From Escherichia coli (GTDB taxonomy: Bacteria; Pseudomonadota; Gammaproteobacteria; Enterobacterales; Enterobacteriaceae), in NCBI RefSeq assembly GCF_965641715.1, contig NZ_OZ282453.1: a stretch of DNA of 64,000 bases; one strand, given 5' to 3'. The position numbers were made by a program. The stretch's first letter is position 1, and each line of letters starts with the position of its first letter. This document shows, piece after piece, positions 9,001-12,000 of this stretch.

Positions 9001-12000
9001 TTTTGTTCTTCGCTTTTCAGCAATGAGCGTTCATAGGCGCGCAAGAATGGGAGGTACATCAGCGCCGACATCACCATACAGATAATGCACATCACCACTG
9101 GGCTAAGTGCCCAGTTGGCAGCCCAGGAGGCACCAATTGGAGCAGGTGTGGTCCATGGCGTTAATGAGACAACCTGTGCCAGCCAGCCCAGTCTGGTCGC
9201 GGTATAGGCCAGGATGGCGTTAATAATTGGCACGAAAACGAACGGGATAAACAACATCGGATTCATGATGATCGGCGCACCGAACAGAATAGGCTCATTG
9301 ATGTTGAAAAAACTGGGGACAACGCCCATTTTTCCGATGGTACGCAAGTGAGCAACGCGGCTGCGTAACAGCAAGAACGCCAGCGGTAGCGTCGAGCCGA
9401 CGCCGCCAATCAGCAGGTAGTGATCCCAAAAACCTTGCAGATAAACGTGAGGAAGTGCTGCGCCAGCGGCAAGAGCTGCCTGATTTGCCGACAGGTTTGC
9501 CATCCAGAAGGGATTCATGATGCCTGTTACAATCAGTGAACCATGAATACCTGCGAACCAGAAAATCTGACACATCAGAACAGACAGCAGAATTGCAGGC
9601 AGGGAATCAGAGGCAGAGACCAGTGGCGCTAAAAGATGCATGATCGCCTCAGGAATAATCATTCCAGTCTGGGCCTCAATAAACAGATTCAGTGGGTGTA
9701 GCGTAGCAATGACCACCAGAACCGGGATAAGGATCTCAAAGGAACGCGCCACCCCAGTAGGGACTTCTTTGGGTAAGCGGATTGTCACGTTGTGTTGTTT
9801 TAACCAGGCGTATACACGAGTGGCATAAATCGCGGTAATCAGCGAAGTGAAAATACCTTGCCCGGAAAGATATTGAGTCGATATTTTGCCGTCAGCATAA
9901 GGCGCTGCGACCAGTAAAAATGCCATAAATGCCAGCAAGCCAGACATAATCGGATCGAGATTAAACTGTCGCCCAAGGCTGGCACCGATCCCCACTGAGA
10001 TGAAGAAAGTCATCACCCCCATGCTGAGGTTAAATGGCAACATTAGCTGTTCACGGTAGGTAGCGGAGAAATCCAGCCAGCCTCGGGCAAAACTGTTGGT
10101 TGTTTCAGCCGAAAACGGTGGGAAAATGAACACCAGCATAAACGAACCGATGATCATAAACGGTAGAGCGGCAGTAAAACCGTCCCGGATGGCAATCACA
10201 TATTTTTGCTGCCCCAGCTTCCCGGCAAGCGGTGTGATGGATTGTTCAATAACGGCAACCATTGATTGATATAACGAACTCATAATGACACCTTTCTAAT
10301 GTGTCGCTGCAATGAGCGACAGAGCGTAATCCAGCACCTTGTCACCCCGTTGCATTCCGTAGTCCGCCATATCAATGGCTTTTACGGGTATTCCCTGGGG
10401 GGCGGCCTTTTCTGCGAGCATGTTTAACATATACTTTACCTGCGGTCCGAGTAGCACCACCTGATATTTTGGAAACTGAATATCAAATTCGGAAACTCCG
10501 TAGGCATCTATCTCTACCGGTAGCTCTCTGCTTTCTGCGGCCTCGACCATTTTTTTCACCAGCAGACTGGTTGACATCCCCGCAGAGCAACACAACATAA
10601 TCCTGACCATCTGACACATCCTCTGAATGTAAAAATCTATTTCGCAATTGATTTGATATCATTTGGAAACCGGTTTCCATTCATGGAAACATAAACTGTG
10701 ACGGCTATCAGATTTCGCTATAAAGTCGCGTTATTATTTCGATTCTGTTCACATTTTTATCATTATTAGCTCAGTTTTGAGATGCCATGGAAAATCGGTT
10801 TCCATTAGAAAACGGAAACAGTTATACTGCGAACGGCTAATATTTAAGCCAACAGGAATTCAGGATTGTGGGAGCCAGGGCCGCTCTGTCAGGGGAGAAT
10901 GATGTCTACTATCAATGATGTATCGCGTTTGGCTGGCGTTTCAAAAGCGACGGTTTCTCGGGTGTTGAGCGGATCGCGTGGTGTTAAAGAAGCCAGCCGT
11001 CTCGCGGTATTGAAAGCCGTCGAAGAGCTAAACTATCGTCCCAATGTCATTGCGCAGTCACTGCTGACGCAATCTACGGGCTGTATCGGTGTAATTTGTG
11101 CTCAGGAAAACATTAATCAGACCACCGGTTATCTTTACGCTCTGGAAAAACATCTCAGCCAGCATCAAAAACATCTACTTCTTCGCTTCGCCAGCAATAA
11201 AGCCGAGGTAAAGAACGCCCTTGATGAGCTGAGCTGTGGTTTGTGTGATGACGTACTGATTATTGGTGCGCGTTTCCCACTGAATATTCATCAGGAAAAC
11301 GTGATACTGGTGGACTGCCTTGAGACGGGTAATGATGTTAACAGTATTCAGTTCGATCACACATTCGCGACTGAAACCGCTTGTAACTATCTGATAAGTC
11401 AGAACAGACGCCAAATCGCCCTCATCCACCCACACGGTATGGGATTTTCTGACCAGGTCTTACTGGGCTATAAACACGCGCTGGAGAAAAACTTTCTTCC
11501 CTTTAACCGTAATCTGGTTTTTATGGAAGCAATCTCTTCCTCAGTGGCTTTGCAGGAGCTGCTAAATAACGCCTCAACACTGAACTTTAATGCGTTATTA
11601 GTTGCTGATGAACAGCAAGCGCAGCGGGTGATACCGCAATTGCAGGCGTTTAATAAATCTGTTCCTGAGGACATTATGGTATTTAGTCTGGCGGGTACTG
11701 TTCATCTTCCGGGGATACCGACCATTCCGGCGATAGAATATTCGCTGGACGAAATGGCCGCCCGCATAGTCAGTTGGCTTAACGAGAAGACGCAGACGAT
11801 GCTGGGTTCATATGTTCTGCGCGGTGATTTAATTATTCCCGATGTACGTTCACGTTAAGTGCTAAATGTATGACGTGAAGCTGCGGCTTCACGTCTACAT
11901 ATCCGAGCATTCAACCTTGCCTAACGCTTCCCAGTAATTGTTCTGGTTATTGCGTTCCATCGCCACAATAGCCTCACGGATGTGCTGCTGATTACTTTCA

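What the first reader, a model, noticed from the sequence alone, without database searches (positions are those of the whole stretch)
10620..10898. Pair of TGGAAA-N-TTTCCA palindromes in the divergent regulator/PTS promoter region
A perfect 16-bp palindrome (10664..10679) and a related 17-bp imperfect palindrome (10788..10804), each followed by an extra half-site, lie between the divergently transcribed LacI-family gene and the PTS operon. Geometry and sequence type fit LacI/GalR-family operators. Two sites would allow looping or autoregulation.
Basis: seen in the sequence. Interest (0 to 1): 0.5.

Follow-up and report, generated by a model that had tools for sequence, protein, structure and literature searches.

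The report
Repressor binding sites of sugar operon
The two TGGAAA…TTTCCA palindromes are almost certainly the DNA sites where the neighbouring LacI-type repressor switches off a sugar-uptake operon and its own gene; this is a well-conserved but ordinary bacterial control region.

Summary
Two such sites are far more than chance gives (0 of 100 shuffles).

The window is an E. coli accessory islet found in 25 of 5426 complete genomes. It carries a PTS IIB-IIC-GH1-IIA-porin operon and a divergent LacI-family gene.

In 78 orthologous intergenic regions from Enterobacterales, both sites are always present and nearly invariant, while the surrounding DNA drifts. In 978 kb of flanking DNA, near-matches occur only in this intergenic region.

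- **O1** lies exactly 33 bp from a conserved CRP-like site. It probably covers the -35 and spacer of the PTS promoter.
- **O2** contains the -35 hexamer (TTTCCA) of an invariant TTTCCA-N17/18-TATACT promoter for the regulator. This points to autoregulation.
- **Looping** is neither required nor excluded.
- **Extra half-sites:** the one after O1 is not conserved; the one after O2 is.

E. coli AscG has the same recognition helix, and the likely AscG sites share the core GAAACCGGTTTC.

This is a new member of a known kind and of low to moderate interest. The one small twist is a repressor with a 16-bp and a 17-bp operator, both frozen across genera.

The parts
10664..10679 (.). O1: perfect 16-bp palindrome TGGAAACCGGTTTCCA, the predicted operator controlling the PTS-operon promoter. 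The conserved form extends to 10663-10680 as A-Y-GGAAACCGKTTTCC-A-T.
   Evidence: Fifteen of the 16 columns 10665-10680 are invariant in 77 distinct orthologous sequences. O1 is present in 78 of 78 intergenic regions.
10788..10804 (.). O2: 17-bp imperfect palindrome TGGAAAATCGGTTTCCA, the predicted operator for autoregulation. Its right half supplies the -35 hexamer of the regulator promoter.
   Evidence: Columns 10789-10804 are invariant or nearly so. The 17-bp form is kept in all orthologues.
10697..10712 (.). CRP-like site 1, TGTGACGGCTATCAGA (9 of 10 consensus positions). Its centre, 10704.5, is exactly 33 bp from the O1 centre.
   Evidence: TGTGA and TCA are invariant or nearly invariant across the orthologues. 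The 33-bp spacing holds in 78 of 78.
10738..10753 (.). CRP-like site 2, TTCGATTCTGTTCACA (weak left half, perfect TCACA). It lies 41 bp from CRP site 1.
   Evidence: G10741, A10742 and TCAC 10749-10752 are conserved. The spacing to CRP1 is 41 bp in 73 of 76.
10799..10828 (+). Predicted regulator promoter: -35 TTTCCA (10799-10804, inside O2), an 18-bp spacer here (17 bp in most species), and -10 TATACT (10823-10828).
   Evidence: Promoter scan. TATACT is invariant in 77 sequences. The spacer is 17 bp in 64, 18 bp in 13 and 16 bp in 1.
10813..10819 (+). Third half-site CGGAAAC in the spacer of the regulator promoter. GGAAAC is conserved; its role is unknown.
   Evidence: G10814 76/77, A10816 and A10817 77/77, A10818 71/77, C10819 68/77.
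10684..10690 (+). Extra half-site TGGAAAC after O1. It is not conserved and is probably not functional.
   Evidence: Column entropies are 1.2-1.9 bits. An E. coli strain carries GGAGAC here.
10651..10658 (-). Conserved block, T-R-T-C-M-A-A-T on the minus strand. It is a candidate -10 region for the PTS promoter but matches TATAAT poorly.
   Evidence: Invariant A10651, T10652, G10655, A10656 and A10658. Minus-strand reading.
10902..11858 (+). LacI-family regulator gene, 318 aa. Recognition helix SKATVSRVLSG; hinge Leu54.
5656..10610 (-). Target operon: PTS IIB (10296-10610), IIC (8952-10283), GH1 glycosidase (7534-8952), IIA (7235-7552) and carbohydrate porin (5656-7050). Coordinates are the window ORFs; the annotated starts are slightly shorter.
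   Evidence: The same gene order is found in 56 or more of 81 loci.

Best explanation
The two palindromes are operators for the divergently encoded LacI-family repressor, an uncharacterised orthologous group. O1 (10664-10679) sits 33 bp on the promoter side of a CRP site. If that CRP site works at about -61.5, O1 covers roughly -36 to -21 of the PTS-operon promoter, so bound repressor would keep RNA polymerase off. CRP-cAMP, with a second site 41 bp further upstream, would supply activation. O2 (10788-10804) contains the -35 hexamer of the regulator's own promoter (TTTCCA-N17/18-TATACT), so the repressor would limit its own synthesis. An inducer made by the pathway, most likely a phosphorylated beta-glycoside produced by the PTS, would release the repressor from both sites. 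O2 has one perfect half-site and one half-site displaced by an extra base, so it is probably the weaker site. What is shown: the sequences, their exclusive location, their conservation and their fixed spacings. What is inferred: binding by this protein, the transcription start sites, CRP dependence, the inducer and the relative affinities.
For: The adjacent protein is a LacI-family member with an HTH and a periplasmic-binding-like domain. Its N-terminal 33 residues and the hinge Leu54 are almost invariant in orthologues. O1 is a 16-bp even palindrome with a central CG, the canonical LacI-family form, and local LacI regulators are usually autoregulated (PMC4052901). Both sites occur in 78 of 78 orthologous intergenic regions. 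Mean column entropy is 0.15 and 0.18 bits in the sites against 1.04 bits elsewhere. All 168 near-matches in 978 kb of orthologous loci lie in this intergenic region. Spacings are fixed: O1 to CRP1 is 33 bp in 78 of 78, and CRP1 to CRP2 is 41 bp in 73 of 76. The -35 in O2 lies 17 or 18 bp from an invariant TATACT. E. coli polymorphisms avoid both sites. AscG has the identical recognition helix, and the K-12 ascG-ascF intergenic region holds two sites with the same GAAACCGGTTTC core. More distant PTS operons, and an unrelated LacI-family gene in metagenomes, carry the same box upstream.
Against: There are no binding, footprint, start-site or expression data. The candidate -10 of the PTS promoter (TCAAAT or TATCAA on the minus strand) is a poor match, so the position of O1 relative to the start site rests on assuming a class I CRP geometry. 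O2 has a non-canonical odd spacing, which Ravcheev et al. found for only about 4% of LacI-family regulators. A conserved third half-site in the regulator promoter spacer is not explained. The whole genome could not be scanned for further sites.
Confidence: 0.85

Rival explanations
1. The two operators work together through a DNA loop, as in GalR or LacI. Repressor dimers on O1 and O2 would interact and enclose both CRP sites, and that loop, rather than simple occlusion, would be what represses the PTS operon. This is compatible with autoregulation.
For: The centre-to-centre distance is 124.5-127.5 bp in all 77 regions where both sites could be placed. That is about 11.9-12.1 helical turns at 10.5 bp per turn, so the sites are roughly in phase. 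From my own knowledge, GalR loops over a similar distance of 113 bp.
Against: All the length variation lies in the linker between CRP2 and O2. Each operator is instead rigidly tied to its own promoter elements, which single-site occlusion explains. The protein is 318 aa and ends where the solved CcpA and PurR chains end in the alignments. From my own knowledge, those are dimers, and LacI's C-terminal tetramerisation helix lies beyond that point. Yersinia adds a third site 57 bp from O1, about 5.4 turns and therefore out of phase.
Confidence: 0.2
2. The sites are mainly bound by a different resident LacI-family protein with the same recognition helix, such as AscG in E. coli, and the adjacent regulator is not the main reader.
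For: AscG and this regulator share the helix SKATVSRVLSG. The palindromes in the ascG-ascF intergenic region share the 12-bp core GAAACCGGTTTC.
Against: Sites and the adjacent regulator co-occur in 78 of 78 loci across many genera. The outer positions differ consistently: GG-A-Y here against GT-G-T in the asc sites. The two proteins are only 26% identical overall.
Confidence: 0.05
3. The palindromes act as nucleic-acid hairpins (terminator, attenuator or RNA element), or they are chance repeats.
For: Perfect self-complementarity. In three unrelated metagenome contigs, the same 18-mer sits between A-runs and T-runs like a terminator.
Against: No terminator-like site was found and there was no Rfam match. 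There is no T-run here. Conservation is of sequence, not of pairing: the only variable inner position, 10673 (G49/T26/A2), changes while its partner C10670 stays invariant. Chance is excluded.
Confidence: 0.02

Closest known systems
AscG and the operators in the E. coli K-12 ascG-ascFB divergent region
   Same: Both have a LacI/GalR-family repressor gene divergent from a beta-glucoside PTS and phospho-beta-glucosidase operon, with two sites in the shared intergenic region. The recognition helix SKATVSRVLSG is identical, and the 12-bp core GAAACCGGTTTC with central CCGG is the same.
   Different: The proteins are only 26% identical. The outer operator positions differ: AYGGAAACC here against TGTGAAACC. 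The asc operon uses a fused IIBC of the glucose family, with no porin and no separate IIA. The asc sites are about 75 bp apart, against about 125 bp here. That the asc palindromes are the AscG sites is recalled from Ishida et al. 2009, which I could not open.
lac operator O1 versus the symmetric lac operator (LacI)
   Same: One repressor reads both an even, fully symmetric site and a site with an extra central base pair. In the lac system the symmetric form binds more tightly (established knowledge, not tested here).
   Different: LacI is a tetramer with auxiliary operators inside and upstream of lacZ, and its gene is not autoregulated through O1. Here the odd-spaced site is a natural second operator on the regulator's own promoter, and it is conserved in every orthologue.
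GalR with OE and OI at the gal operon (repressosome loop)
   Same: A dimeric LacI-family repressor with two operators a little over 110 bp apart, flanking a CRP-dependent promoter region.
   Different: The gal operators flank the promoters of a single operon, and OI is inside galE. Here each operator sits on a different, divergent promoter, and the spacing constraint lies within each promoter module rather than between the operators.
RegPrecise regulog 'PtsR' (Ent638_0983, Enterobacter sp. 638) in Ravcheev et al. 2014
   Same: It is listed as a LacI-family local regulator for 'sugar utilization' in Enterobacteriales, with one regulon and two sites. That matches the architecture here, and Lelliottia and Enterobacter genomes do carry this locus.
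   Different: Identity could not be verified. The stored supplement is truncated before that protein's sequence, no paper mentions the locus tag, and public annotations give only 'LacI family DNA-binding transcriptional regulator'.

Membership tests
LacI/GalR-family operator of a local repressor | A LacI-family regulator (N-terminal HTH plus periplasmic-binding-like sugar domain) is encoded next to the site. | tested here: met
   NCBIfam matches LacI-family models at E 1e-28. Pfam PF00356 and PF13377 are recorded for the identical protein. The closest solved structures are CcpA and PurR.
LacI/GalR-family operator of a local repressor | A palindrome of 14-22 bp, normally of even length, with a central CG. 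| tested here: met
   O1 is a perfect 16-bp palindrome with central C10671/G10672; the criterion is from PMC4052901. O2 is 17 bp. It keeps a CG at 10796/10797 but has non-canonical spacing, so O2 alone meets the feature only in part.
LacI/GalR-family operator of a local repressor | Located in the promoter region, typically 30-140 bp upstream of a start codon. | tested here: met
   The O1 centre is 61.5 bp upstream of the IIB ATG and the O2 centre is 106 bp upstream of the regulator ATG.
LacI/GalR-family operator of a local repressor | Conserved in orthologous upstream regions (phylogenetic footprint) and co-occurring with the regulator. | tested here: met
   Present in 78 of 78 intergenic regions. 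The cores are invariant against a background of 1.04 bits per column. There are no copies elsewhere in 978 kb.
LacI/GalR-family operator of a local repressor | A hinge-helix leucine that inserts at the central CpG, and a conserved recognition helix. | tested here: met
   Leu54 in YRPNVIAQSL aligns with the CcpA hinge YRPNAVARGL. S14-L22 and L54 are invariant in 13 orthologues.
LacI/GalR-family operator of a local repressor | Direct, inducer-sensitive binding of the regulator and de-repression on mutation. | not testable with these tools
   This needs EMSA or footprinting and reporter assays.
CRP-activated (class I / tandem) promoter | A TGTGA-N6-TCACA site, conserved and at a fixed helical position relative to the core promoter. 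| tested here: inconclusive
   CRP1 matches 9 of 10 positions. On its own that is not significant in 64 kb (3 found, 1.85 expected). However, TGTGA and TCA are invariant or nearly invariant, and the site sits at a fixed 33 bp from O1 in 78 of 78. The start site is unknown, so the -61.5 position is assumed.
Operator pair forming a repression loop (LacI/GalR type) | Two operators in helical phase, plus a repressor able to bridge them (tetramer or assisted dimer-dimer contact). | tested here: inconclusive
   The spacing is 124.5-127.5 bp, about 12 turns. However, the variable segment lies between the two modules. The protein ends where the solved CcpA and PurR chains end, before the position of LacI's C-terminal tetramerisation helix. 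Oligomeric state was not tested.
RegPrecise PtsR regulog (Ent638_0983) | Orthology of the regulator to Ent638_0983 and an identical motif. | not testable with these tools
   Only the table row is available. Neither the sequence nor the motif is held.

The most novel reading that the evidence does not exclude
One dimeric LacI-family repressor uses two operators with different half-site spacing, 16 bp even and 17 bp odd. Both are frozen across more than 75 species, and a conserved third half-site lies between the -35 and -10 of its own promoter. This could be a built-in two-affinity circuit: tight control of the operon and leaky autoregulation. Because the recognition helix and the 12-bp operator core match AscG, the horizontally acquired islet might also cross-talk with the resident asc/prp network in E. 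coli.
Probability: 0.2. Interest if true: 0.45.

Novelty: new member of a known kind. Interest (0 to 1): 0.25.

Why it matters
The analysis gives a ready-made, testable regulatory model for an uncharacterised beta-glycoside-type PTS, glycosidase and porin cassette. The cassette is widespread in Enterobacterales (Citrobacter, Enterobacter, Kosakonia, Yersinia, Buttiauxella, Erwinia, Serratia and others) and occurs sporadically in E. coli. It also supplies a 78-species operator alignment for an orthologous group that carries no functional name. Finally, it offers a natural example of a LacI-family protein keeping both an even-spaced and an odd-spaced operator. It does not change how LacI-family regulation is understood.

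Tried and rejected
- **Literature search for the motif.** No paper holds the motif string or the Ent638 locus tags. The AscG footprinting paper (Ishida 2009) is not held, so the AscG comparison rests on the K-12 sequence itself.
- **Link to RegPrecise 'PtsR'.** This was attempted but could not be verified, because the supplement is truncated. Cluster names are generic.
- **Metagenome scan for further regulon members.** I scanned for the exact 18-mer. Of 80 loci, 34 are the same locus. Most of the rest lie inside long open reading frames, so they are chance matches. Three look like terminator hairpins. No new regulon member emerged.
- **Extended -10 reading.** TGATATCAA on the minus strand was considered for the PTS promoter and rejected, because the TG is not conserved.
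- **Class II CRP geometry.** This was rejected because the -10 would then fall inside the palindrome (AACCGG).
- **TACATT at 10626-10631 as the -10.** This was rejected because it would leave a leader too short to include the Shine-Dalgarno sequence.
- **CytR-like anti-activation.** This was considered and dropped because the operators lie outside, not between, the two CRP sites.
- **RNA element.** Rejected.

Full report
**Observation**

The sequence contains TGGAAACCGGTTTCCA at 10664-10679. This is a perfect 16-bp palindrome centred on the CG at 10671/10672. It also contains TGGAAAATCGGTTTCCA at 10788-10804. Here the outer hexamers TGGAAA and TTTCCA are separated by 5 nt instead of 4.

Each site is followed by a further half-site: TGGAAAC at 10684-10690 and CGGAAAC at 10813-10819.

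Chance does not explain this.
- The pattern TGGAAA-N3-6-TTTCCA occurs twice in 64 kb against 0.01 expected, and 0 of 100 shuffles gave two.
- The fixed-gap pattern with up to 1 mismatch occurs once against 0.19 expected.
- Apart from the two sites, the window holds no copy of the 14-nt core with 2 or fewer mismatches.

**Context**

The window is E. coli DNA around uhpT and adeD. Between those genes lies an accessory islet, found in only 25 of 5426 complete E. coli genomes and always chromosomal.

The islet encodes, on the minus strand:
- PTS IIB (annotated start 10610);
- IIC of the lactose/cellobiose family;
- a GH1 glycosidase;
- IIA;
- a LamB-like carbohydrate porin.

On the plus strand, from 10902, it encodes a 318-aa LacI-family regulator. 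None of these proteins reaches the curated cut-off of a named NCBIfam equivalog (only the generic lactose/cellobiose IIC subfamily model is passed), and public annotation is generic. The 291-bp divergent intergenic region, 10611-10901, holds both palindromes.

**Comparative test**

The regulator has orthologues at 80-93% identity in Citrobacter, Enterobacter, Lelliottia, Leclercia, Kosakonia, Pantoea, Buttiauxella, Yersinia, Erwinia, Serratia, Hafnia, Cedecea and others.

In 77 of the 81 loci held (80 from species-representative genomes plus the E. coli record), IIB is divergent from the regulator; with the window that gives 78 intergenic regions. The intergenic region is 287-297 bp, or 351-375 bp in Yersinia. 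The whole six-gene arrangement is conserved in most loci.

I aligned the 78 intergenic regions, which comprise 77 distinct sequences.
- **O1:** every column from 10665 to 10680 is invariant except 10673 (G49/T26/A2).
- **O2:** columns 10789-10804 are invariant or nearly so.
- **Entropy:** mean column entropy is 0.15 bits in O1 and 0.18 bits in O2, against 1.04 bits for the other 254 columns.
- **Location:** in the 978 kb of all loci, all 168 matches with 1 or fewer mismatches lie within 400 bp upstream of the regulator gene, and none lies elsewhere.
- **Within E. coli:** among four E. coli versions that differ at about 15 intergenic positions, no change touches O1 or O2. One change hits the half-site after O1 (GGAAAC to GGAGAC).
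- **Type of conservation:** it is conservation of sequence, not of pairing. Position 10673 varies while its partner C10670 does not.
- **RNA alternatives:** there is no terminator-like feature and no Rfam match.

These results mark both palindromes as protein-binding sites tied to this locus.

**Why the adjacent regulator is the likely reader**

O1 has the canonical LacI-family form. Ravcheev et al. 2014 (PMC4052901) report the following:
- 1251 of 1303 LacI-family regulators use even palindromes;
- 1173 have a central CG;
- more than 75% of sites lie 30-140 bp upstream of a start codon;
- more than three quarters of local regulators are autoregulated.

The regulator's N-terminal reading head is nearly invariant among orthologues, including S14-K15-A16-T17-V18-S19-R20 and the hinge Leu54. 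It aligns with the HTH and hinge of CcpA.

E. coli AscG is only 26% identical overall but has the identical recognition helix SKATVSRVLSG. The K-12 ascG-ascF intergenic region holds two partial palindromes, GGTGACCGGTTTCACA and TGTGAAACCGGTTTCTTA. They share the core GAAACCGGTTTC with O1.

A metagenome contig (L119) shows another, unrelated LacI-family gene with GATGGAAACCGGTTTCCGT about 10 bp upstream of its start codon (24 bp to the centre of the box). More distant versions of this PTS operon (IIB 66-74% identical) keep the same box next to CRP-like sites.

**Architecture and mechanism (inferred)**

Other conserved islands appear in the alignment.
- **CRP1:** TGTGA-N6-TCA at 10697-10712.
- **CRP2:** GA-N6-TCAC at 10738-10753.
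- **Hexamer:** an invariant TATACT at 10823-10828.
- **Block:** a conserved block at 10651-10658.

Distances between elements:

| Interval | Distance | Frequency |
|---|---|---|
| O1 centre to CRP1 centre | 33 bp | 78 of 78 |
| CRP1 to CRP2 | 41 bp | 73 of 76 |
| CRP2 to O2 | 50.5-52.5 bp | variable |
| TTTCCA in O2 to TATACT | 17 bp / 18 bp / 16 bp | 64 / 13 / 1 |

The region therefore consists of two rigid modules joined by a flexible linker.

The first module is O1-CRP1-CRP2. I assign it to the PTS promoter. If CRP1 acts from -61.5, the start site is near 10643 on the minus strand and O1 covers about -36 to -21. The conserved block then falls at -15 to -8 and would be a weak -10.

The second module is O2 with TTTCCA-N17/18-TATACT, a recognisable sigma-70 promoter for the regulator. 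O2 lies on its -35.

The simplest reading has three parts:
- repression of the operon by occlusion at O1;
- activation by CRP;
- negative autoregulation at O2.

The inducer is probably a phosphorylated beta-glycoside made by the PTS. This is by analogy with the cellobiose-6-phosphate effector that Ravcheev et al. assign to AscG and CelR; that TreR responds to a sugar phosphate is from my own knowledge. It is not tested here.

O2 has one perfect half-site and one half-site shifted by a base. By analogy with natural lacO1 and the symmetric lac operator, it should bind less tightly. The invariance of the 17-bp form suggests that the weaker binding is selected.

**Looping**

O1 and O2 are 124.5-127.5 bp apart, about 12 turns. 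A loop is therefore geometrically possible.

Three points argue against a requirement for one.
- All the length variation lies between the modules.
- The protein ends where the solved CcpA and PurR chains end in the alignments. From my own knowledge those are dimers, and LacI's tetramerisation helix lies beyond that point.
- Yersinia has gained a third O1-like copy 57 bp nearer IIB, which is out of phase.

I put looping at about 0.2. It is not exclusive of the main model.

**Extra half-sites**

The half-site after O1 is specific to the E. coli lineage and unconstrained. The GGAAAC after O2 is conserved and sits in the spacer of the regulator promoter. Its role is unexplained. It could be a third, half-strength contact, or part of a degenerate site overlapping the -10.

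**Comparison with what is known, and novelty**

The region works like the AscG/ascFB, GalR/gal and LacI/lac control regions. It passes every sequence-level membership test for a LacI-family operator pair. The biochemical test cannot be done here.

Ravcheev et al. list a one-genome Enterobacteriales regulog, 'PtsR' (Ent638_0983), with two sites. It may be this very system, but I could not verify that.

The finding is therefore a new, or at most previously only computationally predicted, member of a well-known kind. Its interest is low to moderate at 0.25. The two features a specialist might note are the coexistence of even- and odd-spaced operators for one regulator, fixed across genera, and possible cross-talk with AscG.

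Noticed in passing
window 5185-5637 and 15419-15871: Two DUF1198 (yicN-like) genes, 85% identical at the protein level. One lies at the left edge of the PTS islet; the other is the resident copy beyond adeD and adeQ. A YicS pseudogene fragment is annotated just right of the regulator. Together these suggest that the islet entered with, or by recombination at, duplicated flanking genes.
   Followed up: partly
window 10651-10658: A block with five invariant positions in 77 sequences (A10651, T10652, G10655, A10656, A10658) lies just beside O1. It could be a poor -10 for the PTS promoter, or the site of another factor.
   Followed up: partly
window 10813-10819: GGAAAC, a third half-site, is conserved across genera inside the spacer between the -35 and -10 of the regulator promoter. 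E. coli has one extra G here, which makes the spacer 18 bp instead of 17.
   Followed up: partly
L038, L058, L060, L061, L063, L065, L067, L074 (Yersinia), intergenic region upstream of IIB: All eight Yersinia species carry a 56-80 bp insertion between O1 and the IIB start. It contains a third operator copy (GGAAACCGTTTTCC) 57 bp from O1, probably in the transcribed leader.
   Followed up: partly
L082 3351-3367 and 3426-3443 (E. coli K-12 ascG-ascF intergenic region): Two partial palindromes share the core GAAACCGGTTTC with O1, and AscG has the same recognition helix as the islet regulator. Cross-recognition between the two systems is conceivable.
   Followed up: partly
L119 7810-7827: A metagenome contig carries an unrelated LacI-family gene (33% identical to PurR) with GATGGAAACCGGTTTCCGT about 10 bp upstream of its start codon (24 bp to the centre of the box). 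The same box is therefore used by another branch of the family.
   Followed up: no
L103, L130, L133, L145, L113: More distant versions of the PTS operon (IIB 66-74%, IIC 74-80% identical) occur in metagenome contigs. L103, L130, L133 and L145 keep ATGGAAACCGGTTTCCAT or ACGGAAACCGGTTTCCAT upstream of IIB next to strong CRP-like sites. No LacI-family gene was detected in the stretch held.
   Followed up: partly
L102 4471, L124 9917, L094 2069: The same 18-mer sits between an A-run and a T-run in unrelated, possibly mobile-element, contigs. There it looks like a bidirectional terminator hairpin rather than an operator.
   Followed up: no
L080 (Pectobacterium versatile) 5600-6000: The regulator, both operators and the CRP site are kept, but no IIB gene and no full-length GH1 were detected. 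This may be a decaying copy of the operon.
   Followed up: no
window 15987-16653: An HTH antitoxin-like gene and a RelE/ParE-family toxin gene lie beyond the resident DUF1198 gene (annotation of the identical locus).
   Followed up: no
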